In this document: piece by piece, positions 1 through 18,211 of the stretch
How positions within the stretch are numbered: the stretch's first letter is position 1
How the letters are laid out: each line of letters opens with the position of its first letter
Position numbers and translations under genes: made by a program
NCBI GenBank assembly: GCA_934119935.1
Contig: CAKOSX010000001.1
Location: 268,299 to 332,298 of the forward strand
DNA length: 64,000 nt
Source: an uncultured Clostridia bacterium
Lineage (GTDB): Bacteria > Bacillota > Clostridia > TANB77 > CAG-508
Direction: 5' to 3'
The notes under the pieces: generated by a model
Seen by the model: only the letters and a program-made list of their open reading frames with translations
Told to the model about the DNA's origin: nothing
Database searches by the model: none

Positions 1-1
1 A

Positions 2-376: not shown

Positions 377-380
377 AATA

Positions 381-486: not shown

Positions 487-1380
487 ATGGAACCAACTGA
501 AGAAATAAGCAAAAAGGCAGAGGTAGTCCTTGAAGAGGTGAAGGAAAAAATAGAAAACGCTAAAGAAGCTGGTAAGCAGGTTCTAAAAGAAAAGTTCGTG
601 ATAGAAGAGCCTGTTGTAAAAATTACATTTAAGCGTTTATTAGCATATTTTATTATATACAGTTTTCTGGGATTCATTGTTGAAACTATATTTGGAATAC
701 TCACTAAAGGTGTGCTAGAAAGCAGACGAAGCTGTTTGTTTGGACCGTTTTGTTGTATATACGGTGTAGGGGCAGCCTTAATGATTCCTGGGCTGCAAAA
801 ATTCAAAAAAAGCAATTGGGGAATATTCATAGCAGGAGCGATAGAGGGGTCTATGGTAGAATATGCTCTAAGTTGGATTGGAGAGGTATTCTTTAAAATA
901 AAATGGTGGGATTATTCGAACATGCCATTTAACATAAATGGTAGAATAACGCTTGTATTTACAATCTTTTGGGGACTTTTATCATTAGGATTGATAAGGT
1001 TCATAAATCCATATATCGAAAAGATGATAAATAAGCTATCGAAGAAATGGTATAATATACTGACGTTTGGATTCACAGCCTTTCTACTAGCAGATTTATT
1101 AATTACTGCTTTTGGGCTTAAAGTTTTTTATACGAGACTTATGAAAGATCATAATCTAAATATAAAAGATGGTCAGGCTTTAATGATAAGTGATGAAATA
1201 ATGGATACTAAGATTGTAAAGGACCTATCTGCAACAATTTTTTCTGATGAGAAAATATTAAAAACATTTCCAAACATAAAATACGAAGATGAAAATGGAA
1301 AGATAGTGTGGATAAAGGACATATTGACTGATATACAACCATATTATTTTAAATTTAGTAATAAATTTAGACTGAAATAA
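487..1380 (+). CDS. Polytopic membrane protein with charged/coiled N-terminus; resembles putative ABC-transporter type IV (CmpB-like, YSFxGxxxE motif) family
   Basis: AAAGGA RBS 8 nt upstream of ATG; FIIYSFLGFIVETIF motif and 5-6 predicted TM helices. Confidence 0.5.
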   Translation: MEPTEEISKKAEVVLEEVKEKIENAKEAGKQVLKEKFVIEEPVVKITFKRLLAYFIIYSFLGFIVETIFGILTKGVLESRRSCLFGPFCCIYGVGAALMIPGLQKFKKSNWGIFIAGAIEGSMVEYALSWIGEVFFKIKWWDYSNMPFNINGRITLVFTIFWGLLSLGLIRFINPYIEKMINKLSKKWYNILTFGFTAFLLADLLITAFGLKVFYTRLMKDHNLNIKDGQALMISDEIMDTKIVKDLSATIFSDEKILKTFPNIKYEDENGKIVWIKDILTDIQPYYFKFSNKFRLK

Positions 1381-1403
1381 ATTACAATTATGGGGGAATT
1401 ACT

Positions 1404-3491: not shown

Positions 3492-3496
3492 ATTTA

Positions 3497-3530
3497 GTTC
3501 GAAAAAATGACTGAAAATTTTTTTGAACGA
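3497..3530 (+). terminator. Hairpin terminator after the 1404 gene (GTTCGAAAAAA...TTTTTTTGAAC)
   Basis: Inverted repeat with T-run, 6 nt after the stop codon. Confidence 0.4.
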
Positions 3531-3543
3531 TAGTATATTATAA

Positions 3544-3658
3544 AAGAAGAACAATTTGTATTTTTTAGCCTCAACACGTCGCTCTTGGTCGGGGCTCCTA
3601 ACGGACCCCTCAAAAGGCGAGCTTCCGGTTTCATTAAAAAATACAAATTGTTCTTCTT
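3544..3658. other. Structured element: 23-bp perfect inverted repeats (3544-3566 / 3636-3658) enclosing a GC-rich 69-nt core; possible ncRNA, MITE-like element or bidirectional terminator
   Basis: AAGAAGAACAATTTGTATTTTTT and its exact reverse complement flank GCCTCAACACGTCGCTCTTGGTCGGGGCTCCTAACGGACCCCTCAAAAGGCGAGCTTCCGGTT (about 60% GC in a 28% GC context), between convergent genes. Confidence 0.5.
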
Positions 3659-3749
3659 TAGAGTAGTATGTTTTTCAAAAAAGAAGATTTCAAAGTGATG
3701 AAATGAGCATCCAGTTGGGACACGATGAGTCTCTTTTGAGAGAGTCGGT

Positions 3750-5009
3750 TTATCTTAGCAGGTTAAACCACTTATTTAGTACCAGTTTTGTAATAGTTCC
3801 AATGCTTAATTTATCGACATCTCTACTAGAGACTAAATTCACAGTCAAAACTACATTTCCATTTATCGAGAATTCGACTTCGCCAATTTTTTGATTTTCT
3901 AAAACAGGTGCACTAATAGTATCATCCAATTTTATTTCCTGAGTTATATCATTATTGCTGCCATTCGAAGTAAGAATATCTGCATCGTTTTCCAGTATTG
4001 CATCAATTGAAGAAATAGTCCCTTTTTTTATCATTACAGATTTTATTACATCTCCTTTTTTTCCAAAAGAAGTTACAGAATAATTGCTAAAGCCATAGTC
4101 CAAAAGCTTTTGAGCATTAGAAAATCTTATTGCAGGAGTTGGAGCCTTTAAAACAACTGCGATTAAAGAAAGATTATTTCTGGTGGCAGATGCCGATAAA
4201 TTATATAAGGCGATAGAAGTAGAACCTGTTTTTAAACCTGTACAACCATTATAATTTCTAACTAATTTATTCGTATTTACTAAACTAGATTTGCCATCTC
4301 TTAAGGAATCCATCCATATAGTTGTATATTTTGTAATTGAAGGATGATTCATTAATAGTTCTCTAGACATTATCGCAATATCGTAAGCAGAAGTTAAGTG
4401 ACCATCTTCGTCAATTCCATGGCAATTCTTAAATGTGGTATCATTCATTCCTAATTCTTGAGCCTTTTGATTCATCTTTTTTACAAAAGCATCTTGGCTT
4501 CCTTCGAGATAATCAGCCATTGCAACAACGCAATCATTAGCAGAAACAACGCAAATTGCTTTTAACATCTCCTCAACAGTCAATGTTTCTCTAACATCGA
4601 GCCAAATTTGCGAACCACCCATTTTTGCAGCATCTTCTGTACATGGAATCTTATCTGTTAACTGAATTTTACCAGAATCTAAAGCTTCCATAATTAACAA
4701 AAGACTCATAATCTTTGTAACACTTGCAGGTCTTAATTTCTCATGCATATTATAATCGTAAATAATAAGTCCGGAACTTTGTTCTATAAGGCAGGCTGCT
4801 CCACAATCTAAGGCGAGTGGATTATCTGTAACAGTTGCAGAAGATGAGTTTAAGCCTACACTGGTTTCGGCAGTTTCCAACTTTTTAGATTGGTTAGACC
4901 ACACATATGCCGTGGCATCAGAAACAGCAAGTGCAAAAGTATTAAAAAGTATAAAATGACAAAGCAAAACGATGCAAGCAATATATATAAATTTATTTTT
5001 ATGAGACAT
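3750..5009 (-). CDS. dacF: D-alanyl-D-alanine carboxypeptidase (PBP5 family, DacB/DacF-like), with signal peptide
   Basis: SxxK (SVTK), SxN (SAND) and KTG (KTGST) motifs in canonical order; N-terminal signal/TM. Confidence 0.8.
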   Translation of the reverse strand: MSHKNKFIYIACIVLLCHFILFNTFALAVSDATAYVWSNQSKKLETAETSVGLNSSSATVTDNPLALDCGAACLIEQSSGLIIYDYNMHEKLRPASVTKIMSLLLIMEALDSGKIQLTDKIPCTEDAAKMGGSQIWLDVRETLTVEEMLKAICVVSANDCVVAMADYLEGSQDAFVKKMNQKAQELGMNDTTFKNCHGIDEDGHLTSAYDIAIMSRELLMNHPSITKYTTIWMDSLRDGKSSLVNTNKLVRNYNGCTGLKTGSTSIALYNLSASATRNNLSLIAVVLKAPTPAIRFSNAQKLLDYGFSNYSVTSFGKKGDVIKSVMIKKGTISSIDAILENDADILTSNGSNNDITQEIKLDDTISAPVLENQKIGEVEFSINGNVVLTVNLVSSRDVDKLSIGTITKLVLNKWFNLLR

Positions 5010-5069
5010 AAAAAGTCCTCCTTGCTAGAATATTAGTAAATAATATTCGTGTTAGGAGAAAATATTCAT

Positions 5070-5771
5070 TTAAACTAATTTTACAATTTTTACAGTGAGA
5101 GTAACATCATCTGTTTCAAAATAAAGCTTTATATTGTTATCAGTATTATTTTTAAACTTAAAATCAATAGAACCATATGAAACAGCTGCATCTTTACCGT
5201 CTGGAACATATGAAACATTCTTGCCATGTTCATGACGTTCTGTAACTTTTAAATCTGGAACATCAAGTACAGCATTATACAAAGTGCTACTTACTTGGCA
5301 GTTTCCGCCTCCTAAAGATTGAACTTCTTTACCATCTAAAAACATTGTTGCTTCTTTGTAACCTTCTTCTGCTGTTGAAGGACCGGTTATTTCACAAAAA
5401 GAAAAGGTGTCACCAGTATTTACTGTTGTACCATTCAATTTTTCACATGTGATTCTTATGTTGGTTAACCTATTTGAAGTACTGCCAGAAACCTTTGTGG
5501 AATAAGAAGCAATCTCTTCTTCCTTAACGGCAGGTGAAGCCTCAACGTTGGATAGAACATTTTCAATTCTATTATTAACTTTATTTAATTCTTCTGTATT
5601 GCCAAGAACATTGCTATTTTGTGCAAGTCTGGAAGTGTTGGTGGTACTATTGTAATTTTGATTTTCCTTCTGGCCAAATAAATTGTCTTTAAAAACGAAA
5701 ACTAATATGGCAACGATAATAACGAAAATAATTATATATAAGATTGAATAATTTTTACTTTTAGAACTCAT
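5070..5771 (-). CDS. vanW: VanW-family protein (N-terminal TM anchor)
   Basis: GGGNCQVSSTLYNAVLD-type VanW core; start taken at the internal Met (MSSKSK) preceded by AAAGGGA RBS rather than the ORF-track start 5807. Confidence 0.6.
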   Translation of the reverse strand: MSSKSKNYSILYIIIFVIIVAILVFVFKDNLFGQKENQNYNSTTNTSRLAQNSNVLGNTEELNKVNNRIENVLSNVEASPAVKEEEIASYSTKVSGSTSNRLTNIRITCEKLNGTTVNTGDTFSFCEITGPSTAEEGYKEATMFLDGKEVQSLGGGNCQVSSTLYNAVLDVPDLKVTERHEHGKNVSYVPDGKDAAVSYGSIDFKFKNNTDNNIKLYFETDDVTLTVKIVKLV

Positions 5772-5905
5772 AAAAACATCCCTTTCAAAATTTTTACATG
5801 CAAACAATATGTTTTAAAAGTAGTATGCACAAAAATATGAAAAATATGTAATGAGTTTTATAAAATAATAAATGCTAACGATAAATTATTACAAAAAAAT
5901 TAAAT

Positions 5906-5934
5906 TTGCTGCAAAATGTTGTAATATATATAAT
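5906..5934 (+). promoter_or_regulatory. Sigma-A-like promoter (TTGCTG, 17 nt spacer, TATAAT) for the VirB6-like gene pair
   Basis: -35 at 5906-5911, -10 at 5929-5934, about 50 nt upstream of the 5982 start. Confidence 0.35.
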
Positions 5935-5981
5935 GTTATTATAAAATAAAATGAAGTAATAGAAAATAAAAGGAGCAACAA

Positions 5982-8375
5982 ATGAAATTAAAGGAAAGTA
6001 TAAAGAGAAAATTAAGTATTGCCATTGTCGTAGTTATGATGGTAAGCTTTATGTTTGCAAAAACAGTAAGTGCGAAATCTTTTTTACAATCTGCAGGTGG
6101 AAAATTAATGAAACCTGTTCTAAATTTTGTAGTGTTTATAGGCGATTCAATAATAAGTGCATTAGATTCAAATTTGTATTTGAGAGAATGGGGGTATGCA
6201 AAAACGCCAATAACTAGCATATATATAACAGGAGAGGGAAATACTGTATACAGTGGAAGTGAACATTATGATGGTGAAGATGTAATAGAAGTAAATAAAG
6301 AAATTTTAACTTTAGATATGAATATATTTACTGATGATAGTATAGACACTCCAAAAGGAAAGCTATATTCTCCTTATGAAATTTTCTCTAATAAAGTTCC
6401 ACTGTTTGACGTAAATTTCTTTTCTGATAAAAAATATACATATAAAAAAAGTGTAATTACAGGAATAATTCCATCTGAAGAGGGAAATGGAGGAGGAAAA
6501 ATTGTAACTGAAGATGAATTGGTAGAAGTAGAGTCTGCGTCTGGGGTTCTCCAAAAAACTGTTAGTACCTGGTATATTGCGTTAAGAAATATTGCACTAG
6601 TTATATTATTATCAGTATTATTATATATAGGAATTAGAATAGTTATTTCATCTAATGCTGGCCAAAAGGCACAATATAAACAGATGCTACTTGATTGGGT
6701 TATTGCAGTGTGCTTAGTATTTTTTATGCACTATATAATGAGTTTTGCCGTAAATATAACAGAAAATATCTCTAATATAATATTTCAAATGGGAGATAAG
6801 GTAATTAAAGTTCCGATTACAGTATACTCGGGGTTTACTGGAAGACAAACTAAAAATATTGATATACTAACAAATTTTACTGGTTATTTAAGAGTGATTG
6901 CAGGAATTGCAAATTCAAAAGAACAAACGTTAATAACTGTTGAATATGTGATTATGTATTTAATTACTATAGCATATACCGTAATGTTTACTATTACATA
7001 TTTAAAGAGAGTTGTTTATATGGCTTTTTTGACAATTATTGCACCAATAACAGCGGCAACTTACCCTTTAAAAAAGGAAGGAACAACTGCAGGTCAATCT
7101 TTCTCGTTATGGTTAAGAGAATATATGGCAAATTTATTAATACAACCAATACAGTTAATGATATATATGTTAATAATCAGTAATGCTATGAATTTAGTAG
7201 TAGATTATCCTATATATGCTATCGTTTGCTTAGGATTCTTTATACCAGCAGAAAAAATGGTATTTAAGTTATTTGGAATACAAGCACCTCGATATGCTAA
7301 TTCAGAAGGAATTATGAATTCACAACTTAATATGGCTAGAGGTGGAGCAAGGTTAACTGCAAATTTTGCTGGAAACATTATGCATGGAGTTACTAATGGA
7401 TTAGGAAAAATCAGAACTATGACTATAGGAAAATCTGTAAATGGTAAAAATAGTGTGCCAAAGCTAACGGAAAAGAATAATAAAGAAATTTCCAAGAATA
7501 ATAAGGTTGAGAGAAATGATTTTGTTGGTGAGGATACTAATGAAAAGCAAATAATAAATTTAGAAAACGATAATATAGAAAAGGAAGTCGTAGGAAACAA
7601 ATTAAGAAAATTAGTTAGTGAAAAGAATATATCAAATGTTGGAAAGGGAATAGGAAGTTTTTATGGATCATTAACATCAGCAGGATTAGGTGCTATTTCA
7701 GGAATTATGTCTGGAAGTTTGGAAAAGACAATAGAAAATACGGCAAGTGGGGTGATTAGTGGTGCAAAAAAAGGAGGAAGAATAGGAAGTAATATAGGAG
7801 CGAGTGTGTATAACACTGGTGCAATAGTAAAAAATGTTGCAAATAGCTTATCAAAAACAGAAGAAAAAAAGGAGATAAAGACTGATTATGATTCTGATAA
7901 GGTTATGGAGAGTGTTTATCCAGAGTATGCAAAAAACGGAATATCGAAAATGAATGAATTTAAAGCCGCATATGGTTTGGAAAAAGAAGGAATTGATAGA
8001 AAAGAGGCAATAGCGACTTGTAAAATAGCAAAAAAGATTGGAGATATAAGACAAGATAATGAGACAAAACTAAAATGGCATGAGGAACTAAGCAAAACTC
8101 TTTCGGAAACAGACGAAATACAGAAAATAATGAAAGAACAAAGTGAACTAATAGAAAAGAAATATTCAGAGCAGGAAAAAGGTTTAGAAAAACAACATGA
8201 GAATGATGGAAAAAACAGCAAAGAGTTTAATGATTTATCAAAAAAGCTTGAAGACTTAAAGCAGGAGTTAAAGGATAATAAAGATAATGAACTTAAACAA
8301 GTAAAAGATATACCAATTCGTTATGCAGATAAGATTATAGCACAAGTCGAAGAATATTATGAAAATTTAGAATAA
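5982..8375 (+). CDS. VirB6/TrbL-like polytopic membrane protein, paralog A (ConG/TcpH/Tn916-Orf15-like architecture: signal/TM, about 160 aa external segment, about 6 TM, about 370 aa hydrophilic coiled-coil C-terminal tail)
   Basis: AAAGGAG RBS; topology from hydrophobicity; shares with the next ORF the KTVSAKSFLQSAGG N-terminus, TM core (WYIALRNIA..., FMHYIMSF, LWLREYMANL, IPAEKM) and conserved C-terminal tail. Confidence 0.45.
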   Translation: MKLKESIKRKLSIAIVVVMMVSFMFAKTVSAKSFLQSAGGKLMKPVLNFVVFIGDSIISALDSNLYLREWGYAKTPITSIYITGEGNTVYSGSEHYDGEDVIEVNKEILTLDMNIFTDDSIDTPKGKLYSPYEIFSNKVPLFDVNFFSDKKYTYKKSVITGIIPSEEGNGGGKIVTEDELVEVESASGVLQKTVSTWYIALRNIALVILLSVLLYIGIRIVISSNAGQKAQYKQMLLDWVIAVCLVFFMHYIMSFAVNITENISNIIFQMGDKVIKVPITVYSGFTGRQTKNIDILTNFTGYLRVIAGIANSKEQTLITVEYVIMYLITIAYTVMFTITYLKRVVYMAFLTIIAPITAATYPLKKEGTTAGQSFSLWLREYMANLLIQPIQLMIYMLIISNAMNLVVDYPIYAIVCLGFFIPAEKMVFKLFGIQAPRYANSEGIMNSQLNMARGGARLTANFAGNIMHGVTNGLGKIRTMTIGKSVNGKNSVPKLTEKNNKEISKNNKVERNDFVGEDTNEKQIINLENDNIEKEVVGNKLRKLVSEKNISNVGKGIGSFYGSLTSAGLGAISGIMSGSLEKTIENTASGVISGAKKGGRIGSNIGASVYNTGAIVKNVANSLSKTEEKKEIKTDYDSDKVMESVYPEYAKNGISKMNEFKAAYGLEKEGIDRKEAIATCKIAKKIGDIRQDNETKLKWHEELSKTLSETDEIQKIMKEQSELIEKKYSEQEKGLEKQHENDGKNSKEFNDLSKKLEDLKQELKDNKDNELKQVKDIPIRYADKIIAQVEEYYENLE

Positions 8376-8414
8376 TATATATAAGTTAATGATAAAAGCA
8401 AAGGGGAATAACAG

Positions 8415-10964
8415 ATGAAGAGAGCAAAAAAAATGCTATCAAAGCTAGAAAAAATAATTGCAATAATAATAACAATTAATATTATATTTGTGAGTCAGGT
8501 ATCTGCTAAAACGTTTTTGCAAACTGCAGGAGGCGTCTTAATAGAGCCAGTTTTAAATTTTGTTATGTATATAGGTGATACGGTTGAAAACCAATTAAAT
8601 AAAACATTATATACTCAATATGGAAATGAAGACGCTGTTGTTGATTATCCAGTATCAGATGCTATGGAAGACATTGCTGATATAGGAGTGTTTGCTCTTA
8701 CAGTAAAAGAAAAACTATTAAAAATTGATTTGGAGTCATATAGTGATGCGGCGCTAATAGTTTATCTTGGTTTGGACCCAGGGTTATATTTTTCTTTGCA
8801 TTATGGAACAAAAATAGCAGAGGCACTAGGACATGAAACAAAAATTATGTTGCATCCGATAATAAATCTTGCTGATGATGCTTATGAAGAAGCTAAGTCT
8901 TATGTGCTGAAGGTAATAGATATGCTTAGAAAAGTCAGAAAGTCATTGGTAGAAAGACAAGAAGAATTAGCAGAGGGAAGAAAAGTTGTAACTGTTGAAC
9001 CGTTTGTTTTAAAAACAAACGCATTTGACAGTATTGACATTCCGAATGGAGAAATATATTCTCCATACGAAATTTTTTCGAATCAAATACCTTTATTAGA
9101 CGTTAATTTTATATCGCCACATGAGTATAAAAAAACGATTTGGAATATTGATATGCAAAACTTTAAAATTTATAGTGAGGAAGAAGATGTAGAATCTTCT
9201 GCAGCAATTTTGCAAAAAACAATTAGTAGTTGGTATGTAGCTTTGAAAAACATTGCAATTGTCGCTCTAATGTCTGTATTATTATATATTGGAATTAGAG
9301 TTGTGGTATCATCAAGTAATTCAGAAAAGGCTCGCTATAAAGAATTAATTTTTGACTGGTTAACTGCTTTGTGTCTTATATTTTTTATGCATTATATAAT
9401 GAGTTTTATGATTAATATGACAGAAAATATATCTACAATAATTAGTGAAGGTGCCAATACACTTATAAAAGTACCGATACAGGTTAATACAATTTTGGGA
9501 GTAGAAAATGAAAATTTTAATATAATAACAAACTTTTCCGGATATGTTAGATTGATGGCAAGTTTACTTGAAACTAATGGCTCAACTCTGACTGCATTAG
9601 AATATATTATTTTGTATGTTGTTCTTGTTGCATATACAGTAATGTTTACAGTTATATATATGAAAAGGGTTATTTATATGGCTTTTTTAACAGTTATATC
9701 TCCTATCACGGCGGTAACTTATCCGTTTAGAAAGCAAAGAGTAGGTGGGGGACAAGCCTTTGCACTATGGCTTAGGGAATATGTTGCTAATTTAATAATT
9801 CAACCTATACATCTACTTTTATATTCAATAACTATTGGAAGTGTTATGGAATTTGCTGTAGAGCACCCTATATATGCAATTGTGGCTCTGGTTTTCTTTA
9901 TACCAGCTGAAAAAATGATAATGGAATTCTTTGGATTGAAAAATTTGCAATATGCAGACACAGGAAAGACAATGAATTCAGAATCAAGAATATTAAGAAA
10001 AAATGCAATGATTGCTGGAAACGTTGCAGGAAATCTAAGTAGTGGATTAGCAAACGGTCTAAAGAAAATTAGAGTGATGACACTAGGGGAATCTTCAGAA
10101 AACAAGAAGATAAAACAACTAAATACTGAAAAAAATATTGAAAGTGCAACGGAAAATAATCAAAATGGAAAAAATTATTTTAGCCAATTGAGTCAAGAAA
10201 TATTAAACAGAAATTTAACTAATTCGAATAATGAAAAAGAAGCTGAAAATATTCAGAAATCCATATTTGAAAGTATAGAGAGAAGTGTTGAGAAAAGCGT
10301 AGACAGCAAACAAAATGATGATATAGAAACGAAAAGTAATAACAAAGAATATGAAAAGAATATAAGAAATACTATGAATAAAGATGAAGAAAAAGAAATT
10401 TATGATGCTATGTCTACGGAAAAAAATAATCAAAGTAATATAGTACAGGAACAAGATTTTAAGATAGAAACAAATATTAATTTTGATCAAGAAAAAGGAG
10501 AGGCGTATAGAGAATATTCAAAAAATGGAATAACAAATATAAATGAGTTTGAAGCTACATATGCATTAGAAGAAAAGGGAATGAGCAGAGAAGAGGCTAT
10601 TGCAACATATCAAATTGCAAAACAAACTGGTGATGTGAGAAATAATGAAAATATACAACAGGAATGGTTAAAAAAAATAAGCATCAATTTATCGCAGAAC
10701 CAGTATATTAAAGAAATGATGCAGGAACAAAGGAATCTTATAACAGAAAAATATTTGAAAAATGAAAGAGAATTAAAAGAAAAACATAATAAGAAAAATA
10801 ATTCTAATCAGGAGTATAGAAGATTAAAAGAGCAGGTAGAAGATTTAGAAAGAGAGATGAAAAACAACCAAAATAAAGAATTAGATGACGTTGAACAGAT
10901 TCCGATACGATTTGCAAAACAGATATTGAGTAACATTGAAGATTATTATAACAATTTAGAATAA
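8415..10964 (+). CDS. VirB6/TrbL-like polytopic membrane protein, paralog B (849 aa)
   Basis: Collinear with 5982..8375 through signal peptide, TM core and C-terminal coiled-coil tail (…IPIRFAKQIL…YYNNLE); AAGGGGA RBS. Confidence 0.45.
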   Translation: MKRAKKMLSKLEKIIAIIITINIIFVSQVSAKTFLQTAGGVLIEPVLNFVMYIGDTVENQLNKTLYTQYGNEDAVVDYPVSDAMEDIADIGVFALTVKEKLLKIDLESYSDAALIVYLGLDPGLYFSLHYGTKIAEALGHETKIMLHPIINLADDAYEEAKSYVLKVIDMLRKVRKSLVERQEELAEGRKVVTVEPFVLKTNAFDSIDIPNGEIYSPYEIFSNQIPLLDVNFISPHEYKKTIWNIDMQNFKIYSEEEDVESSAAILQKTISSWYVALKNIAIVALMSVLLYIGIRVVVSSSNSEKARYKELIFDWLTALCLIFFMHYIMSFMINMTENISTIISEGANTLIKVPIQVNTILGVENENFNIITNFSGYVRLMASLLETNGSTLTALEYIILYVVLVAYTVMFTVIYMKRVIYMAFLTVISPITAVTYPFRKQRVGGGQAFALWLREYVANLIIQPIHLLLYSITIGSVMEFAVEHPIYAIVALVFFIPAEKMIMEFFGLKNLQYADTGKTMNSESRILRKNAMIAGNVAGNLSSGLANGLKKIRVMTLGESSENKKIKQLNTEKNIESATENNQNGKNYFSQLSQEILNRNLTNSNNEKEAENIQKSIFESIERSVEKSVDSKQNDDIETKSNNKEYEKNIRNTMNKDEEKEIYDAMSTEKNNQSNIVQEQDFKIETNINFDQEKGEAYREYSKNGITNINEFEATYALEEKGMSREEAIATYQIAKQTGDVRNNENIQQEWLKKISINLSQNQYIKEMMQEQRNLITEKYLKNERELKEKHNKKNNSNQEYRRLKEQVEDLEREMKNNQNKELDDVEQIPIRFAKQILSNIEDYYNNLE

Positions 10965-10978
10965 AAGAGGAAAGAATT

Positions 10979-11866
10979 ATGTACAAAAATGATACAAATA
11001 AGTATAAAGTTTGGATGACTATTATTGTATTAATAGTAGTGGTATTTATTGTAATCAATTCAAAAATGAAAAATAATAAGCAATCGAATCTAGATAATAT
11101 TTTGGAAAATGCAGAAAAAGTAGAGAACATAGAACATACAGATAACGAAAGTAATGAGAATAATCTAAATCAGACAAAGAATAATGAAATTGATTTTAAC
11201 CAAAATGTAATAGAACGATTTATAGAATATTGTAATAATAATGAGATTAAAAAGGCATATAATTTATTGTCACAAGATTGTAAAAATGAATTATTCCCTT
11301 CAGTAGATGATTTTTATGATAAGTATTATAAGAAAAAATTTAGTACTAAAAAGAATTATACTATCATGTTGTGGAAAAACATGACCTATATGATTAATCT
11401 AAAAGAATGTAGTATTGAAACAGGAGTGTTATCAAGTGAAGTTATTAGAGATTACATAACATATACAAGAAATGGATTAAATATTGGTGGTTATATAGGT
11501 AGGGAAAAAGCAAATAGAACTATCAATGTGGAGAATATAAAAATCGATATTCTCTATAGAAATACATATATTGATTATGAAGAATATGCATTTTCTATAA
11601 AAAACAATAGTAAAGCAAGTATGATTTTTGATAGCAAAGAAAAAGCGAATACTCTCTATATAAAAGATCAGAAAGGGCTAAAGTATTATGCGTATATGTA
11701 TGAGCTGAACAAAAGTGAACTTATTTATGATCAAAATGAAGAGAGAAAAATAATTATTAAATACGAAAAAATGTATGATACAAATATATACACAAAGAAT
11801 ATTATCTTTGATGATGTAACAATAGGAGAAGAAAAAACTCAAATAATGATAGCATTAGGAGAATAG
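10979..11866 (+). CDS. Single-pass membrane-anchored hypothetical protein (N-terminal TM, Asn-rich linker, extracytoplasmic domain)
   Basis: ORF with GAGGAAAG RBS; N-terminal TM WMTIIVLIVVVFIVI. Confidence 0.5.
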   Translation: MYKNDTNKYKVWMTIIVLIVVVFIVINSKMKNNKQSNLDNILENAEKVENIEHTDNESNENNLNQTKNNEIDFNQNVIERFIEYCNNNEIKKAYNLLSQDCKNELFPSVDDFYDKYYKKKFSTKKNYTIMLWKNMTYMINLKECSIETGVLSSEVIRDYITYTRNGLNIGGYIGREKANRTINVENIKIDILYRNTYIDYEEYAFSIKNNSKASMIFDSKEKANTLYIKDQKGLKYYAYMYELNKSELIYDQNEERKIIIKYEKMYDTNIYTKNIIFDDVTIGEEKTQIMIALGE

Positions 11867-11867
11867 T

Positions 11868-14226
11868 ATGGAAGAAGAGGGAAAAGAAAAAAAGAACAGG
11901 AAAATAAAAAATGCAGGGAAAAAAATATTAAAAAATACCATTAAAACAATAATAAAGTTCATAAATTTCATAATTAATTTAATTATTAACTTTACTGTGC
12001 CAACATTAATAATAATTGCTGTTCTTATAGTTATTTCATCTATAAAATATGTAATAGATACTCTGGATGGTTCTCGAAATGAAAGTGAGCCACGGGAATG
12101 TAGGACATGTTGTCTCTGAAGAGGTCAGTTCTAAAGTTGTTGTTTCATCTATTGTTAAAACTGATAACGGTTATGGATATGATGTGGACTTAGATGAAAA
12201 AGTAGAGGCTATAAAAAAGGATCTGAAAGAAAACGATGCTGATGATACATTAGATAGATATATAAAAGAAAAAAATCAAAATAAGTATTTAAAGAAGTTT
12301 TTGCAGGCTGAAATAAAAACAAAGTTTCCAGACTTAAGAAACAAAGAGAAAATTGGACAAGCGTTAAAAGAAAATGAACTACAGGGATCAATACAAATAC
12401 ATAGAAAAAATCAAAATGGAAAAGATGAAATTTTAACATATATAGACGGTAAAACATTTAGAGAGTATATAAATTCTAATGATAAAAGAGCTATAGAACA
12501 TTTTTCTCTTAATAGTGATGGTAATTTACTAATTTCTAGCTGGACGAAGAAAACTCTAAAAGATGGAAGTGAAGAGTATTTCCTAAGTGAAGAAATTATC
12601 GATTATAGAGCTCTAACAAAAAGGTATGACATGCCATTTGATTTTTTGTGGGCACTGACAGTAATGGGAAATGATGAGGATTTGTCTTATGAGGTGGCAA
12701 AATTAACGGATGATACAAAGATAGTATTAACAATATATGAAAATGTTGTAAAAACTACAACAGTAAGAAAAACAGAAAATCAGGAAACAGGGAAAACAGA
12801 AGTAACGACCGAAAAATATGAAGAATGTGAAAATCACTTATATATGTCAAGTGCTGTAACATGGGTTGCTGATGTTGAAAATGAATATGTTAACAAGGTT
12901 ATAGATCCTATTGTGAGCCAATATTCGTCAGGTATTAGTGAAGTCACAAAAACAGTTGAAAGAAACGAGTATGTGAAAGGAACTGAAAAAATAACAGAAA
13001 AAATTGACAAAAATTCAGAAAAAGAAAATTTCATTACATTGCTTCTAAAGCATGAAAATGCAACTAATAAGATTTTAACAGCAAGAGATTGGTTCTATGA
13101 AATGCTTGAATCAAGCAATGATACAGTAGATATGATTGATACTATAGATTACTTGCTAGATATAGTAGAGGGCAAAACTACTACTGGAAATATTATTGAA
13201 GAGGGCTCAAAACAAGATATAACGCAGAATCAATTGGTAGATGATATAATAGTTGATACCACAAAAGGAAATAACAATTTAGTTCTAAAAAAAGAACAAT
13301 TAGAAGAAATAATAAGAAAGACATATAAAGATACAGATGACAAGCAGAAAAACTTACTAGGAGCATTAAATTCTTTTTATAAGATTCAATCGGAAAGACA
13401 TGTTAATGCTGTATTTGCAATGGCTGTAGCAATACAGGAATCAAATGCGGGGACAAGTTGGAATTACATAGACAAAAGTACTCATAACTGGATGAGTGTT
13501 ATGGGGCAAAGTGGATATACAGATAAAAATGGCAATACGTGGAAAAAATATGAGAGCTTTTCCGAAGCAACAGAGGACTTTGGAAGATTAATAGAGACAA
13601 ATAATAGCTATTTTGCTGGAGGAAACATAACAGTAAAGCAAATATCTAAGGCATACTGCAGTCCTTCAGAGCCATGGAGTAACCACGTAATATTAAAGAT
13701 GAAAGACTTATATTCATCTATTGGAATTCACTTAGATGATTATATAGATAAGAAGGAAGAAGAAAATTCTAGTGAAGATGCTAATATAACAGCTACAACA
13801 TTTTTAGGAATAGCAAAGCAATGCCATGACTATATTAAAGACAATAATTTTTATTATGTACAAGGAAACAAAATCCCATATCCAAATGGAACAAGTTACA
13901 TTGATTGTAGTGCATATGTTACATGGGTTTTGTATGAATATGGATATACAGAATTTGCGGGGCACCAAAAAGACACTGCCTGGTTTATGGGAAGTGGCCC
14001 ATCAAAAATGGGGTGGACAATATTAAAACCATCTGAGGCAAAGGCTGGAGATCTTCTTGTAAAATCTGGACATATAGAAATATTTGCAGGCGATGGAGTT
14101 GGAACTTATTCAGCAGGTTCTACTAATTCCATAAGAAAAGACATAAGTTACAAAGGATGCAGTTTAAGCAAAATAATTTCAGATGGCGGATTTACTCGAG
14201 CTATTAGAGTAAAAGCACCAAATTAA
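11868..14226 (+). CDS. Membrane-anchored bifunctional peptidoglycan hydrolase (FlgJ-type glucosaminidase plus C-terminal NlpC/P60), CwlT/TcpG-like; read as one gene interrupted by a +1 frameshift (extra C at 12093)
   Basis: ORFs 11868..12119 (TM anchor) and 12067..14226 join in frame if the C at 12093 (CCACGGG) is deleted; glucosaminidase motif VNAVFAMAVAIQESNAGTSWNY; NlpC/P60 Cys/His (DCSAYVTWV…GHIEIF). Confidence 0.6.
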
Positions 14227-14242
14227 GAATGAAGGAAATGCG

Positions 14243-15490
14243 ATGAGTAAAAAGGTATTAATTATAGGACTGATTTTAATATTAATAATTAGTGGAACAG
14301 TCACTATTGTTTTAACGAGAAAGACAGATAATGAGAAAAATATGGATGTTGAGGAGCAAGTAGGAGACGTTGAAACAAAGTTTAAAAGAGAAAAAGTAAG
14401 CAATTCTACAGTATTTTATACTGTAGAAGATTGCATAAATTTTTACATAGATTTTGTCAAAGCAGAGGAGAAAGATAAGATTTTTGAACTGCTGGATGAA
14501 AAATATATTAATGAAAATAATATAAATCAAGAGAATGTACTAAAATATGTAGAAAAGCCGAAATATTCTTTTATAGCATTAGACATGTATGAAAGTGAGT
14601 TAAACAATGTGTGCAACTATATTGTGGAAGGTGTTGCGGATGATGGAATTTACAACACAAAAATGTATTTTAGAGTGGGATTAGATACTAATAATTTTTC
14701 ATTTAACATAATGCCTTTATCTGCAAAGAAGTATAACAACATAGATGAAATAGAAGAAAGTGAAAGTATAGCAGAAATTCCAAACAACGATGCCAATAGT
14801 TATCAGTATAATAGAATAAAAGAAAATGAAATAATAGAAAAAATTTTAAAATATTATTGCGACCTTACTGTAAATAATGTAAAAAAAGCATATGACATGT
14901 TAGAACAAGAATATAGGGAAAAACGATTTGATAAATATAGCAAATTTCAAGATTACATAAAAAAGAGAAGTGAAAATCTAAAACAAGCACGTGTTGCAGG
15001 ATATTCAGTAAAGGAAGAAGAAAATAAAAAAATATATACTGTAGTAGACCAAGACGGAAGGGTATATATATTTAAGCAAAAATCTATAATGAATTTCACT
15101 GTTCAGATGGATGACTATACATTAGAAACAGATGAATATAAAGAAAAATATATGAATTCTACTGTTGTAGATAAAATTAAACTAAATGTAAACAAATTTA
15201 TGAAGATGATTTCTAATTATGATTATGAGAGCGCATATGGGCTATTGAATGAAGCATATAAAAAGAATAATTTTAAAACTGAAAAATCATATGAAAAATT
15301 TATAGAACAGCATTTTTATAATTCAAACTCATATAGCATAGAAAAGATTGAGACAGATGCACAAGATTATATTATTACAATTACTGTTGCAGAAGATGCG
15401 AGTGCATCAGCAGCGAAAAAAACAAATAAGATTGCAATGAGACTAGGGGAGAATACAGAATTTGTAATGGCGGTAATATTAAATGAGTAA
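14243..15490 (+). CDS. Single-pass membrane-anchored hypothetical protein (415 aa)
   Basis: N-terminal TM LIIGLILILIISGTVTIVL then soluble domain; GAAGGAAATG RBS. Confidence 0.5.
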   Translation: MSKKVLIIGLILILIISGTVTIVLTRKTDNEKNMDVEEQVGDVETKFKREKVSNSTVFYTVEDCINFYIDFVKAEEKDKIFELLDEKYINENNINQENVLKYVEKPKYSFIALDMYESELNNVCNYIVEGVADDGIYNTKMYFRVGLDTNNFSFNIMPLSAKKYNNIDEIEESESIAEIPNNDANSYQYNRIKENEIIEKILKYYCDLTVNNVKKAYDMLEQEYREKRFDKYSKFQDYIKKRSENLKQARVAGYSVKEEENKKIYTVVDQDGRVYIFKQKSIMNFTVQMDDYTLETDEYKEKYMNSTVVDKIKLNVNKFMKMISNYDYESAYGLLNEAYKKNNFKTEKSYEKFIEQHFYNSNSYSIEKIETDAQDYIITITVAEDASASAAKKTNKIAMRLGENTEFVMAVILNE

Positions 15491-15555
15491 AATAGGTAAA
15501 AATTTTTTATTTATTATTAATAAACTTTATAAACATTATTATATGAGGAGGAAAA

Positions 15556-15945
15556 ATGATGAACATAAAAGAAAATATAAAGAAAATTATAACAGGAATC
15601 ACAGCTTTTTTTACAACAATTACAACAAAAGTGTTTGCCAAAACAAATACTGATATCCAAAAGGTATTAAATGTTCTAGATGATAGTTATAATATGAGAG
15701 GAGTTTCATTATATGGAATTGAACGACCATGGCAATATACAGTAAGCAATGGATTGTTGAAAATTTGTGAATTTATTGCTATTCCACTTATTTTAATAAT
15801 TGGAGCCATAATTTTTATACAAAGAAAGAAGAATATAAAATCTAAAAATTTAAAAAAAGCTATAATAATTATAAGTATTGTTTATGTTGTTGCTTTTATA
15901 GCTGCACTTATTATTCCAATAATTTATAACCAGATTTATTTCTAG
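15556..15945 (+). CDS. Small secreted/membrane protein: Sec signal peptide plus two C-terminal hydrophobic helices separated by a basic loop (VirB2/TrbC-pilin-like topology)
   Basis: AGGAGG RBS; paralog of 17855..18211 on the opposite strand. Confidence 0.55.
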   Translation: MMNIKENIKKIITGITAFFTTITTKVFAKTNTDIQKVLNVLDDSYNMRGVSLYGIERPWQYTVSNGLLKICEFIAIPLILIIGAIIFIQRKKNIKSKNLKKAIIIISIVYVVAFIAALIIPIIYNQIYF

Positions 15946-16082
15946 ACGCATTGCTTAAATAAGTTTAGTTATTAAAATATGAAGATTAGCTAGTGTAAAT
16001 AAATATTGTAGATGAAATTTGTAAAAACATTATTAGTTTAGTAAAACATATGAAATATTACAAGTGAATATATGGAGGAAAA

Positions 16083-17854: not shown

Positions 17855-18211
17855 TTATATTGTAGGATTAAACAAAAAAATTGCAATTCTAATTATGCTG
17901 GCAATAAGAAATGTAATAATAGCTATAAGAAATACTATTTTAAAACTCTTAATACTTTTATTTTTATGTTTTTTCACAAGAATTATAATTCCTAATATTA
18001 AAATTATAGGTACTATAAATATTTGCCACAAACGAAGAATATTTAAAACAATTGACTTATAGTTTGGTGTTTGTGATGTACGTGGTGGACCATATAATTC
18101 TTGAAGAATAGGCATGGAATCAGTAGCAACAGCTAATACTTTAGTTGATACTGTTGCAAAAAAAGCTCCAATTCCAGCTGTGATTTTTTTGAACATTTCT
18201 TTTATTTTCAT
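17855..18211 (-). CDS. Small secreted/membrane protein, inverted paralog of 15556..15945 (signal peptide plus two hydrophobic helices)
   Basis: Shared signal peptide (KKITAGIGAFFATVSTKVLA vs KKIITGITAFFTTITTKVFA) and shared C-terminal helix-basic loop-helix layout. Confidence 0.55.
   Translation of the reverse strand: MKIKEMFKKITAGIGAFFATVSTKVLAVATDSMPILQELYGPPRTSQTPNYKSIVLNILRLWQIFIVPIILILGIIILVKKHKNKSIKSFKIVFLIAIITFLIASIIRIAIFLFNPTI

What the first reader, a model, noticed from the sequence alone, without database searches (positions are those of the whole stretch)
5982..10964. Tandem duplicated VirB6-like giants with conserved N-terminal signal, TM core and C-terminal tail
The two adjacent ORFs are collinear: the signal peptide KTVSAKSFLQSAGG / SAKTFLQTAGG, the TM blocks (FMHYIMSF, LWLREY, FIPAEKM) and the extreme C-terminus (IPIRYADKII…YYENLE / IPIRFAKQIL…YYNNLE). 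They diverge in the external loop (paralog B has about 100 extra residues) and in a GS-rich/K-E-rich low-complexity tail. Two VirB6-like paralogs in tandem is unusual for Gram-positive conjugation loci, which normally carry one.
Basis: seen in the sequence. Interest (0 to 1): 0.55.

Follow-up and report, generated by a model that had tools for sequence, protein, structure and literature searches.

The report
Paired VirB6-like genes lacking VirB4
Two adjacent genes really are diverged copies of one large membrane protein related to the VirB6 channel subunit of type IV secretion systems. They sit in a fixed chromosomal half-operon of an uncultured gut Clostridia bacterium with no ATPase or DNA-transfer genes nearby, and this strain carries a swapped-in, very divergent version of them.

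Summary
ORF A (5982-8375, 797 aa) and ORF B (8415-10964, 849 aa) are collinear paralogs, 42% identical over 709 residues; only the linker is low-complexity.

Both belong to a large unnamed family (about 3,700 clusters at 50% identity) that no Pfam or NCBIfam model captures at threshold. In more distant relatives the gene sits directly after virB4, in chromosomal, relaxase-less operons: VirB2-like pilins, PrgI, TraC-like, VirB4, VirB6-like, VirB8-like, hydrolase, VirB8-like.

The window holds only the distal half: A, B, a VirB8-like protein, a split cell-wall hydrolase, a triple-NTF2 VirB8-like protein and a protein with VirB2-like topology. This half lies between PBP5/VanW and rSAM/MiaB/MutS. 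No VirB4, VirB3, coupling protein or relaxase is present in the 64 kb. Close relatives keep the same layout.

Extra copies are not unusual here: other loci carry two to four.

The more notable points are:
- The nearest relative is 96% identical in the flanks but only about 68% across 6167-12001, and has one copy there, so this is a replaced cassette.
- The first transmembrane hairpin is homologous to the systems' VirB2-like pilins.

The module is under purifying selection (dN/dS about 0.1-0.35). I rate it a new variant of a known kind.

The parts
5808..5981 (+). Divergent intergenic region between VanW(-) and ORF A: presumed promoter and leader of the module. The Shine-Dalgarno AAGGAG lies 8 nt before the ATG.
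   Evidence: Sequence. It is 90-100% identical to relatives L005, L007 and L025. The promoter scan gives only weak consensus matches, so the promoter is inferred, not shown.
5982..8375 (+). ORF A, 797 aa, extended VirB6-like polytopic membrane protein (paralog 1).
5982..6074 (+). ORF A signal peptide (aa 1-31, predicted cleavage VSA|K).
   Evidence: Hydropathy and AF2 helix 5-24. It lies in the conserved left flank of the cassette, 97-100% nt identity to relatives up to about 6085. Cleavage is inferred.
6075..6536 (+). ORF A N-terminal ectodomain (aa 32-185): conserved helix 34-65, a beta-rich variable part, and the conserved block PxxxYSPYEIFSN..DVNF (aa 121-150).
   Evidence: AF2 and conservation profile. 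No Pfam hit even at E<=1.
6537..6794 (+). ORF A first transmembrane hairpin (aa 186-271), homologous to VirB2/TrbC-like pilins. Its cytoplasmic loop is SSNAGQKAQYKQ, against pilin GSAEEKAEYKKT.
   Evidence: hhalign of the family against pilins of related loci: probability 93.5%, E 2e-7, A residues 196-263. Pfam T4SS_pilin PF18895 is sub-threshold in A and B and hits 39 of 52 members, best E 3e-8. tblastn of pilins hits here.
6795..7271 (+). Remainder of the ORF A hydrophobic core (aa 272-430): external beta-hairpin 274-297 and long helices 316-359, 369-408 and 410-430. It holds most of the family's invariant residues (R304, Y340, R343, F349, P355, Y361, P362, W377, E380, Q388, P389).
7323..7886 (+). 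ORF A low-complexity linker, predicted disordered (aa 448-635; G/S-rich in A). This is the most variable part.
   Evidence: pLDDT below 50; 10-26% column identity.
7887..8372 (+). ORF A conserved helical C-terminal domain (aa 636-797, pLDDT about 95), ending IPIRYADKII..YYENLE. Predicted cytoplasmic.
   Evidence: The YxxxGI(T)D...LExxGxxRxxAI block is in the majority consensus of 96 homologs. No Pfam family. Location is inferred from a five-pass reading of the AF2 helices.
8376..8414 (+). A-B spacer (39 nt) with B's Shine-Dalgarno AGGGGA. Its leader is 80% alike to the leader of A.
8415..10964 (+). ORF B, 849 aa, extended VirB6-like paralog 2. Signal peptide 8415-8507; B-specific ectodomain insert aa 67-186 (8613-8972); hydrophobic core about 9198-9932; K/E/N-rich linker; C-terminal domain about 10476-10961.
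   Evidence: B is its own cluster at 50% identity (P0013).
6167..12001 (.). Replaced cassette: ORF A from about codon 62, ORF B, w295 and the 5' part of w83. Only about 68% nt identity, in patches, to the nearest relative L005, which has a single 802-aa VirB6-like gene plus a 172-aa gene here.
   Evidence: blastn of the window against L005: 1-6167 at 96.0%, 12001-19758 at 92.1%, 19872-21484 at 96.0%, and only 66-73% patches between. The left boundary is resolved. The same A+B+295+83 arrangement appears on all six contigs shown (of nine read) from several cohorts.
10979..11866 (+). w295: bitopic protein (N-terminal TM aa 8-32) with an NTF2-like, VirB8-like ectodomain.
   Evidence: Homologous to the gene after VirB6-like in VirB4-containing operons (E 1e-24). 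hhalign to the third NTF2-like repeat of w415: probability 93%, E 3e-7.
11868..12119 (+). w83: detached N-terminal membrane anchor of the hydrolase. It is fused to the hydrolase in relatives.
12067..14226 (+). w719: cell-wall hydrolase (VirB1-like role). Glucosaminidase domain at aa 436-520 plus a C-terminal NlpC/P60/CHAP-like cysteine-peptidase domain. It is in the +1 frame relative to w83.
   Evidence: Pfam PF01832, E 2.6e-7, above cut-off. NlpC/P60 E 1.2e-3 and CHAP E 2.8e-3 are sub-threshold. The N-terminal region matches hydrolases of VirB4-containing operons.
14243..15490 (+). w415: bitopic VirB8-like protein, an N-terminal TM helix plus three tandem NTF2-like domains.
   Evidence: AF2 pLDDT 87, pTM 0.80. 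The best PDB hit is the VirB8-like OrfG of ICESt3 (7pkw, E 5e-3, probability 0.80); TcpC (3ub1) and many single-domain NTF2 folds also appear, but none at E<=1e-3. Homologous to the last gene of VirB4-containing operons (E 1e-31).
15556..15945 (+). w129: small protein with a signal peptide, two TM helices and a basic loop. It is a candidate VirB2-like subunit by topology only.
   Evidence: Hydropathy. It matches the S-O-M-I-M-O, 50-150 aa, near-virB6 criteria of bioRxiv 10.64898/2025.12.18.695078. No detectable homology to TrbC/T4SS_pilin.
17855..18211 (-). 118-aa paralog of w129 (34% identity, E 6e-19), with the same topology.
   Evidence: Equivalent minus-strand copies exist in relatives.
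3750..5807 (-). PBP5-type DD-carboxypeptidase (3750-5009) and VanW-domain protein (5070-5807). These are conserved upstream neighbours, and such genes recur next to this module in unrelated genomes.
   Evidence: Pfam. PBP5 lies next to the module in L001 and L029, and VanW next to it in L028.

Best explanation
A and B are old paralogs of an uncharacterised 'extended VirB6-like' membrane-protein family from uncultured gut Clostridia. They head a chromosomally fixed operon that is the distal, envelope-spanning half of a monoderm, relaxase-less T4SS-like machine. That half comprises two VirB6-like proteins, a VirB8-like NTF2 protein (w295), a peptidoglycan hydrolase (w83/w719), a triple-NTF2 VirB8-like protein (w415), and small proteins with pilin-like topology (w129 and its paralog).

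Proposed working (all inferred):
1. Each protein is exported by Sec and its signal peptide is cut after VSA.
2. The N-terminal ectodomain faces the cell wall.
3. The pilin-like hairpin and three further long hydrophobic helices form the membrane platform or channel, by analogy with pentameric VirB6.
4. The disordered linker and the conserved helical C-terminal domain stay in the cytoplasm as a docking site.
5. The VirB8-like proteins and the hydrolase build the path through the wall.

The energising VirB4 (with PrgI and the TraC-like protein) is not in this locus. It must be encoded elsewhere in the genome, or the module works without it.

The A-B-w295 segment is an allelic cassette exchanged by homologous recombination. 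The anchors are the conserved signal-peptide end of the first gene and the hydrolase gene. This points to diversifying pressure on exposed parts of the machine.

Shown here: paralogy, family synteny with virB4 elsewhere, absence of virB4 here, cassette replacement, purifying selection, and the pilin-like hairpin. Inferred: topology, oligomeric state, the substrate, an ATPase supplied in trans, and the selective agent.
For: Paralogy.

Family and synteny:
- More than 2,090 homologs, none named; 3,665 clusters at 50% identity.
- In L003/L004, L012-L016, L029 and a C. botulinum plasmid, the gene directly follows virB4 in the order pilins, PrgI, TraC-like, VirB4, VirB6-like, w295-like, hydrolase, w415-like.
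- The window's w295, w719 and w415 match their counterparts there, with E values from 2e-4 (w719) to 1e-31 (w415).

VirB6-like character:
- Sub-threshold but consistent NCBIfam hits: 41 of 52 members to MMCAP2_0566 (best 3e-12), 37 of 52 to pLS20_p028, 22 of 52 to Mbov_0396.
- Weak TrbL_3 and TrbL_4 hits.
- TrwI/VirB6 chains among the top Foldseek hits.
- Five or six hydrophobic helices plus a large hydrophilic tail.

Other module parts: w415 is VirB8-like and w295 is related to it.

Not a mobile element:
- The same core-gene context occurs in L005, L007-L011 and L025-L027.
- GC content is the same as the flanks.
- No VirB4, PrgI or TraC-like match in 64 kb, and no Walker A motif in the unannotated large ORFs.

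Functional: dN/dS is 0.12-0.34 for module genes, against 0.035-0.11 for the flanks.

Cassette. In the tree, A and B are the two deepest branches of a 100%-supported clade.

Related complete loci are chromosomal: next to gidA-gidB-parA-parB, or next to ribosomal-protein genes. This matches the relaxase-less chromosomal T4SS described in Patescibacteria (PMC12102498).
Against: - No curated VirB6/TrbL model is matched at threshold.
- Foldseek E-values for TrwI are 2.7-4.8, with target-normalised TM-scores (TMt) of 0.33-0.41.
- hhalign against TcpH finds nothing.
- VirB4 is regarded as indispensable for every known T4SS, and none could be tied to this genome. A VirB4 search shared no contig length with the clade's contigs, but only 120 of at least 7,700 hits were visible.
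- In this haplotype the hydrolase is split from its membrane anchor by a frame change.
- In relative L011 the VirB6-like gene is in two ORFs. Both observations could mean decay.
- Six hydrophobic peaks would put the C-terminus outside, unless the 44-residue AF2 helix 316-359 crosses the membrane only once.
Confidence: 0.6

Rival explanations
1. A decaying remnant of an ancestral chromosomal T4SS or an integrated element. The proximal half (pilins, VirB3, TraC-like, VirB4) was deleted. The surviving distal genes, including the duplicated VirB6-like pair, are on the way to loss and no longer do anything.
For: - No VirB4, VirB3, coupling protein or relaxase in 64 kb, nor within 10 kb upstream in relatives.
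- The hydrolase is split by a frame change in this haplotype.
- The VirB6-like gene is split in L011.
- dN/dS is 3-8 times higher than in flanking housekeeping genes.
Against: - All six or seven genes stay open in a genome of about 30% GC, across relatives whose VirB6-like proteins differ by 40-60%.
- dN/dS of 0.12-0.34 is well below 1.
- About 20 residues are invariant across 52-96 homologs, including A and B.
- Several intact haplotypes are kept at one locus, and copies are gained (window, L009) rather than lost.
- There is no integrase, flanking repeat or GC shift.
Confidence: 0.15
2. These are not secretion-channel subunits. The family would be a pilin-domain-containing envelope protein working with PBP5, VanW, the hydrolase and the NTF2-like proteins in local peptidoglycan remodelling or surface-structure anchoring. 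The link to virB4 operons in other genomes would reflect co-option of that wall-remodelling module by T4SSs.
For: - PBP5 and/or VanW genes recur next to the module in unrelated contexts.
- L028 shows three tandem [w295-like, hydrolase, w415-like] units with no VirB4 in view.
- No VirB6 model is matched at threshold, and structural matches are non-significant.
Against: - In most sampled loci outside this clade the gene is directly adjacent to virB4 and co-oriented with it.
- The consistent weak hits are all to conjugation membrane proteins.
- The pilin-like hairpin and the VirB8-like partners are T4SS-type parts.
- PBP5 and VanW are on the opposite strand here and evolve like housekeeping genes.
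Confidence: 0.15
3. An antigenic or phase-variation arrangement. B, and second copies in relatives, would serve as a donor or alternative cassette that recombines with the expressed first gene through the shared 5' (signal-peptide/N-helix) and 3' (IPIRxA..YYxNLE) ends, producing surface variants within a lineage.
For: - The ends and the leader are conserved between A and B (30-nt leader 80% alike, last 27 nt 89% alike).
- The N-terminal 42 residues are 57% identical, against 42% overall.
- The recombination boundary lies exactly at the conserved 5' end.
- Many divergent alleles occupy one locus.
Against: - B is a complete gene with its own Shine-Dalgarno, start codon and signal peptide, not a silent fragment.
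- The A+B arrangement, with an identical B and a 797-aa first gene wherever it is complete, was recovered on all six contigs shown from several cohorts, with no mosaics.
- No long identical tracts exist between A and B; the longest repeats are 18-30 nt.
- No invertase or recombinase gene is nearby.
Confidence: 0.07

Closest known systems
Extended VirB6 homologs of monoderm conjugation systems (MPF-FA type: TcpH of pCW3, Orf15 of Tn916, ConG of ICEBs1)
   Same: They are 700-900 residues long, with an N-proximal block of hydrophobic helices followed by a large, partly unstructured hydrophilic C-terminal region (review PMC12857230). They are encoded with a bifunctional wall hydrolase and NTF2/VirB8-like bitopic proteins.
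   Different: - No detectable sequence relationship to TcpH (hhalign).
- Absent from known plasmids apart from weak hits in C. botulinum plasmids.
- A and B have a cleavable signal peptide and a roughly 150-240 residue ectodomain before the first helix.
- The first hairpin is pilin-like.
- The locus has no VirB4, coupling protein or relaxase and is not on a mobile element.
Rickettsiales vir homolog (rvh) T4SS with tandem VirB6 paralogs (Ehrlichia, Anaplasma, Rickettsia)
   Same: Several tandem, strongly diverged, extended VirB6 paralogs. The T4SS genes are chromosomal, lack a relaxase and are scattered in separate islands, so some islands lack virB4 (PMC7648143; Bao et al. 2009 as cited in PMC12857230; PMC12102498).
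   Different: Those are diderm alphaproteobacteria with a P-type system that includes VirB9/10/11. There the virB6 paralogs sit next to virB3-virB4, whereas here the paralogs are in the island without virB4. There is no sequence relationship beyond the general VirB6-like architecture.
Chromosomal relaxase-less T4SS of Patescibacteria (MPF-FATA-derived: VirB2-like pilins, PrgI/VirB3, TrsD, VirB4, VirB6)
   Same: The related complete operons found here have the same parts list. They match the same Pfam models (TrbC PF04956, T4SS_pilin PF18895, PrgI), have no relaxase in view, and sit in chromosomal positions near the origin (parAB/gidAB) (PMC12102498).
   Different: The hosts are annotated as uncultured Clostridia, not Patescibacteria. 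The window's own locus lacks the pilin, VirB3 and VirB4 half. Whether the two systems are specifically related was not tested phylogenetically.
PrgH (VirB6) - PrgF (VirB2-like) platform and pilus of pCF10 and other Gram-positive plasmids
   Same: The proposal there is a VirB6 pentamer onto which small two-helix proteins with a charged loop assemble, with such genes found next to virB6 (bioRxiv 10.64898/2025.12.18.695078). w129 and its paralog fit that topology definition and location.
   Different: Here the VirB6-like protein itself carries a hairpin homologous to the pilins. w129 shows no sequence similarity to those pilins.
Domesticated T4SS-derived DNA-uptake systems (H. pylori ComB; archaeal Ced/Ted)
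   Same: Chromosomal, relaxase-less machines built from VirB2-, VirB4- and VirB6-like parts and used for something other than conjugation (PMC9905601, from its title and abstract; ComB from general knowledge).
   Different: All of those keep their VirB4-type ATPase with the system. There is no evidence here for DNA uptake.

Membership tests
VirB6/TrbL superfamily | Polytopic inner-membrane protein with about 5 or more hydrophobic helices | tested here: met
   Hydropathy peaks at A 204-222, 239-257, 317-341, 382-407 and 403-431, with equivalents in B. AF2 long helices at 186-222, 226-271, 316-359, 369-408 and 410-430, pLDDT 85-96.
VirB6/TrbL superfamily | Match to a curated VirB6/TrbL sequence model (Pfam TrbL PF04610, TrbL_2/3/4, or an NCBIfam equivalent) at its cut-off | tested here: not met
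   A and B give only PF18895 T4SS_pilin, below cut-off. TrbL_4 hits 5 of 52 members, best E 3.9e-4. TrbL_3 is 'weak' on one homolog. NCBIfam conjugation membrane-protein models score far below their cut-offs, e.g. 26 bits against 90.
VirB6/TrbL superfamily | Fold similarity to a solved VirB6 (R388 TrwI) | tested here: inconclusive
   Chains 7o3v_F/J, 8rtd_L and 8rt9_F rank 2, 5, 6 and 8. However, E is 2.7-4.8, probability 0.12-0.20 and TMt 0.33-0.41 over about 280 columns.
VirB6/TrbL superfamily | Encoded next to virB4 in a T4SS gene cluster | tested here: not met
   Not met in the window or its close relatives. Met for more distant family members L003, L012-L016, L029 and the C. botulinum plasmid.
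VirB6/TrbL superfamily | Assembles as a pentamer at the centre of the inner-membrane complex | not testable with these tools
   No multimer prediction or experiment was available.
Extended-VirB6 subgroup | Large hydrophilic central or C-terminal domain added to the hydrophobic core, with total length about 700 residues or more | tested here: met
   A residues 431-797: a disordered linker at 448-635 and a confident helical domain at 636-797. A is 797 aa and B is 849 aa.
Gram-positive conjugative T4SS locus (MPF-FA / MPF-FATA) | VirB4 ATPase present | tested here: not met
   tblastn of two VirB4 and two TraC-like proteins from related loci against the 64 kb finds nothing. Pfam on the ORFs scanned (487-39299) shows no DUF87 or AAA_10. 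No Walker A motif in the unannotated large ORFs.
Gram-positive conjugative T4SS locus (MPF-FA / MPF-FATA) | Coupling protein (VirD4/TcpA) and relaxase present | tested here: not met
   None appear in the Pfam scans of ORFs from 487 to 39299. ORFs beyond 39.4 kb were not scanned individually; their order after trigger factor looks like housekeeping genes.
Gram-positive conjugative T4SS locus (MPF-FA / MPF-FATA) | Peptidoglycan hydrolase (VirB1-like) and VirB8-like NTF2 proteins in the operon | tested here: met
   Glucosaminidase above the Pfam cut-off, and NlpC/P60/CHAP below it. For w415, the best PDB hits are OrfG and TcpC, with a predicted triple-NTF2 architecture, though E is only 5e-3. w295 is related to w415.
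Integrative/conjugative or other mobile element | Integrase or recombinase, flanking repeats, atypical composition, variable insertion site | tested here: not met
   No recombinase next to the module. No flanking direct repeats. GC is 0.25-0.31, like the flanks. The chromosomal position is identical in at least 6 related contig sets.
VirB2/TrbC-like pilin (for w129 and its paralog) | 50-150 aa, optional signal peptide, two TM helices joined by a short charged loop, encoded near virB6 (criteria of bioRxiv 10.64898/2025.12.18.695078) | tested here: met
   w129 is 129 aa, with a signal-peptide-like N-terminus, TM helices at about 68-88 and 101-125, and the loop RKKNIKSKNLKK. This is topology only. 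Sequence homology to TrbC/T4SS_pilin was tested and not found. Co-modelling with VirB6-like proteins was not possible.

The most novel reading that the evidence does not exclude
This lineage runs a T4SS-derived envelope apparatus without any VirB4. It would be built from VirB6-like platforms carrying a built-in pilin hairpin, VirB8-like wall subunits, a hydrolase and small pilin-like proteins. It would be a domesticated, ATPase-independent surface structure whose exposed VirB6-like subunits are kept hyper-diverse by balancing or diversifying selection (phage, host IgA or partner recognition) and are exchanged as cassettes between strains.
Probability: 0.15. Interest if true: 0.8.

Novelty: new variant of a known kind. 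Interest (0 to 1): 0.5.

Why it matters
VirB6 is the least understood core subunit of type IV secretion systems, and monoderm systems are poorly characterised. This locus, with its relatives, defines a very large unnamed VirB6-like family in uncultured gut Clostridia (about 3,700 clusters at 50% identity).

Three features make it useful:
- The first transmembrane hairpin is homologous to the VirB2-like pilins of the same systems. That is a concrete evolutionary and structural link between platform and pilin.
- The family occurs in chromosomal, relaxase-less operons like those reported as essential in Patescibacteria. That type of machine would then extend into ordinary gut Firmicutes.
- The distal half-operon is stably inherited without VirB4. 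This offers a natural test of whether VirB6, VirB8 and VirB1 parts can function, or be supplied with an ATPase, in trans.

Cassette replacement between genomes that are 96% identical marks these proteins as exposed targets of strong selection. That is relevant to strain-level ecology, phage receptors and immune recognition in the gut. It also explains why assemblies break here.

Tried and rejected
- Profile search of the PDB by sequence with the family alignment: only low-complexity artefacts such as huntingtin polyQ.
- PDB sequence searches with the w415, w295 and hydrolase profiles: nothing.
- PHROGs: no phage relationship.
- hhalign of the family against TcpH, and of w415 against TcpC, of pCW3: nothing.
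- hhalign of w129 against VirB2-like pilins: only the signal peptides align.
- tblastn against 72,556 plasmids: only weak hits in C. botulinum plasmids typed non-mobilizable. The family is therefore not a known plasmid VirB6.
- Rfam on the whole window: one tRNA only, and no riboswitch before the operon.
- Promoter and terminator scans: not above shuffled expectation.
- Small-ORF check for a peptide upstream of the rSAM/SPASM gene: none.
- Pfam at E<=1 on the A and B ectodomains and C-terminal domains: only coiled-coil noise.
- Polymorphic-toxin reading, considered and rejected: the variable region is a disordered low-complexity linker, while the C-terminal domain is conserved.
- Assembly-artefact explanation for the duplication, considered and rejected: the same arrangement is on all six contigs shown (of nine read), from several cohorts.

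Full report
**1. The observation**

ORF A (5982-8375, 797 aa) and ORF B (8415-10964, 849 aa) are adjacent, co-oriented and separated by 39 nt. Each has its own Shine-Dalgarno sequence and ATG. BLASTP gives 556 bits, E=0, 42% identity and 65% positives over 709 residues, plus a separate N-terminal match of 57% over 42 residues.

All quoted motifs are present. Conservation across six clade members is highest at residues 31-60, 121-150, 181-450 and 631-690, and at the extreme C-terminus. It is lowest in the linker at about 451-630. The similarity is therefore not a low-complexity artefact.

B's roughly 90 extra residues (B 67-186) lie in the N-terminal ectodomain. At the DNA level only short tracts remain alike: a 30-nt leader at 80% and the last 27 nt at 89%. 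The duplication is old, with dS about 1.5, which is saturated.

**2. Anatomy of the protein**

Hydropathy and an AlphaFold2 model (96-sequence alignment, mean pLDDT 72) agree on the following layout:
- A signal peptide (1-31, VSA|K) followed by a conserved helix (34-65).
- A beta-rich ectodomain, to about residue 185.
- A hydrophobic core of long helices (186-222, 226-271, 316-359, 369-408, 410-430), with an external beta-hairpin at 274-297.
- A disordered linker (448-635).
- A confident helical C-terminal domain (636-797, pLDDT about 95).

About 20 residues are invariant across 52-96 homologs, nearly all in the core.

The first hairpin (A 196-263) is homologous to the VirB2/TrbC-like pilins encoded in related loci. 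hhalign gives probability 93.5% and E 2e-7, and the loop motif is shared. Pfam T4SS_pilin hits 39 of 52 members.

**3. What family it belongs to**

No Pfam or NCBIfam model is matched at its cut-off. Across 52 members there are consistent sub-threshold hits to monoderm conjugation membrane proteins: MMCAP2_0566 in 41 of 52 (best 3e-12), pLS20_p028 in 37 of 52, and Mbov_0396 in 22 of 52. A few members hit TrbL_3 or TrbL_4 weakly.

Foldseek against the PDB returns nothing significant. However, four of the top eight hits are TrwI/VirB6 chains of R388, with TMt 0.33-0.41.

The family is large: more than 2,090 hits in the word-indexed search, none of them named, and 3,665 clusters at 50% identity in the exhaustive search. 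It is essentially absent from 72,556 plasmids.

**4. Genomic context elsewhere**

In more distant members the gene lies directly after virB4. These members are L003/L004, L012-L016, L029 and a C. botulinum plasmid. The gene order is VirB2-like pilins, PrgI, TraC-like, VirB4, VirB6-like (one to four copies), a w295-like protein, a large wall hydrolase, then a w415-like protein.

These operons sit in core chromosomal surroundings. L012 follows gidA-gidB-parA-parB, L003 follows parB, and L029 lies between rpsU/yqeY and PBP5-rpsL-rpsG. No relaxase or coupling protein is in view. This resembles the relaxase-less chromosomal T4SS reported for Patescibacteria (PMC12102498).

One locus, L030, has a coupling protein and PcfJ nearby and may be a mobile version.

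**5. Context in the window**

Downstream of A and B lie five further module genes:
- w295 (10979-11866).
- w83 (11868-12119).
- w719 (12067-14226): a glucosaminidase plus a sub-threshold NlpC/P60/CHAP domain.
- w415 (14243-15490).
- w129 (15556-15945).

w295, w719 and w415 are homologous to the genes that follow VirB6-like in the VirB4-containing operons, with E from 2e-4 (w719) to 1e-31 (w415).

The AF2 model of w415 (pLDDT 87) is a TM helix plus three NTF2-like domains. Its best PDB hits are the VirB8-like OrfG of ICESt3 (E 5e-3) and TcpC. w295 is homologous to the third repeat of w415.

w129 and a minus-strand paralog (17855-18211) have the signal-peptide, two-helix, basic-loop topology used to define Gram-positive VirB2-like candidates. 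They show no sequence homology to pilins.

What is missing matters more. There is no VirB4, TraC-like protein, PrgI or recognisable pilin anywhere in the 64 kb. No ATPase motif occurs in the unannotated large ORFs. No coupling protein or relaxase was found.

The flanks are CmpB, an unknown 695-aa protein, PBP5(-) and VanW(-) upstream. Downstream are rSAM/SPASM, L31, MiaB, MutS and other housekeeping genes.

**6. Conservation and cassette replacement**

Close relatives keep exactly this position and gene order, again without VirB4 within 10 kb. These are L005, L007-L011 and L025-L027, all from uncultured Clostridia in gut metagenomes.

The nearest relative, L005, compares with the window as follows:
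- 96.0% nt identity over window 1-6167.
- 92-96% nt identity over window 12001-21484.
- Only 66-73% identity, in patches, between those two blocks.
- In that interval L005 has a single 802-aa VirB6-like gene plus a 172-aa gene.

The left junction lies just after the signal-peptide codons. The right junction lies in the membrane-anchor part of the hydrolase gene.

The A+B+295+83 arrangement recurs on all six contigs shown (of nine read) from several cohorts.

In an NJ tree (386 columns, 100 bootstraps), all alleles at this locus form one clade with 100% support. A and B are its two deepest branches, so they are not each other's closest relatives.

dN/dS is 0.26-0.34 for the VirB6-like genes and 0.12-0.30 for the other module genes. 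Flanking housekeeping genes give 0.035-0.11. Selection on the module is purifying but relaxed or partly diversifying.

**7. Interpretation**

The pair is best read as two diverged extended VirB6-like subunits heading the distal, envelope-spanning half of a chromosomal, non-conjugative T4SS-like machine. The ATPase half is encoded elsewhere or has been dispensed with.

The tandem duplication itself is ordinary for this family: there are four copies in L014 and two each in L009 and L001. Three findings are less ordinary:
- The half-operon without VirB4 is stably inherited.
- Cassette-type allelic replacement has occurred between nearly identical genomes.
- The VirB6-like protein contains a pilin-homologous hairpin.

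The main rivals are a decaying remnant and a wall-remodelling module that is not a channel. The decay reading is supported by the split hydrolase and by a split VirB6-like gene in L011. The wall-remodelling reading is supported by recurrent PBP5 and VanW neighbours and by L028. Neither can be excluded without a complete genome, multimer modelling or expression data.

**8. Novelty and score**

This is a new variant of a known kind: extended VirB6-like paralogs of a monoderm T4SS-type system. The family is unnamed and the arrangement, without VirB4 and with cassette variation, is unusual. Interest is 0.5.

Noticed in passing
window 11868-12119 and 12067-14226: The hydrolase is split. The 83-aa membrane anchor and the 719-aa catalytic part form one 776-aa ORF in L005 ('..DGSRDDDDSGNVGHVVSK..'). 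In the window the reading frame changes by +1 around 12085-12100. The same split is present on all contigs of the A+B haplotype, so it is real. It could be a recombination scar at the cassette's right junction, a pseudogene, or programmed frameshifting.
   Followed up: partly
window 15556-15945 (+) and 17855-18211 (-): Two paralogous small proteins (34% identity, E 6e-19) flank the rSAM/SPASM and L31 genes. Each has a signal peptide, two TM helices and a basic loop. Relatives carry one or two extra minus-strand copies. The topology is VirB2-like, but there is no detectable homology to TrbC/T4SS_pilin.
   Followed up: partly
window 3750-5807 (-); L001 14529-15734; L029 20313-21572; L028 17783-19447: PBP5-type DD-carboxypeptidase and/or VanW-domain genes lie next to the VirB6-like/hydrolase module in several unrelated genomic contexts. 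This hints at a functional link with peptidoglycan editing.
   Followed up: partly
L001 1037-2983 and its homologs: The VirB4 of the related complete operons is extraordinarily conserved: 87-95% identity across more than 100 separate 90%-identity clusters. The adjacent VirB6-like proteins are only about 30% identical between the same kinds of loci.
   Followed up: no
L012 852-9967; L003 1-9986; L029 1-9629: Complete T4SS-like operons with TrbC/T4SS_pilin pilins occur in uncultured Clostridia MAGs. They sit beside gidA-gidB-parA-parB, or next to ribosomal-protein genes, with no relaxase or coupling protein in 10 kb. This is reminiscent of the chromosomal T4SS of Patescibacteria.
   Followed up: partly
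L014 6740-18180: Four tandem VirB6-like paralogs (931, 774, 987 and 864 aa) lie directly after virB4. They form a monophyletic group, so the amplification was lineage-specific.
   Followed up: partly
L028 1-17765: Three consecutive repeats of [w295-like, large hydrolase, w415-like]. One VirB6-like gene is in view, followed by a VanW/G5/PG_binding_4 gene. No VirB4 is seen on the contig portion available.
   Followed up: no
L011 4461-6807: In this GTDB representative MAG the VirB6-like gene is in two overlapping ORFs (165 + 638 aa). This is either a frameshift pseudogene or an assembly error.
   Followed up: no
window 1404-3491: A 695-aa soluble protein with no family in Pfam, NCBIfam or PHROGs and no Walker A motif. 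It is a conserved neighbour in the clade but evolves fast: 47-96% identity where neighbouring genes are 81-98%.
   Followed up: partly
window 22513-28159: mutS is followed not by mutL but by a glucosaminidase/G5/SH3 wall protein. Next come a 133-aa ORF and a 913-aa ORF without any family, then a protein with a weak GGDEF hit and a sub-threshold HTH_60 hit.
   Followed up: no
L019-L024 (contig ends): Contigs carrying the A+B haplotype are all only 7-9 kb long and break near the cassette borders. This is consistent with strain-level heterogeneity at this locus disrupting metagenome assembly.
   Followed up: no
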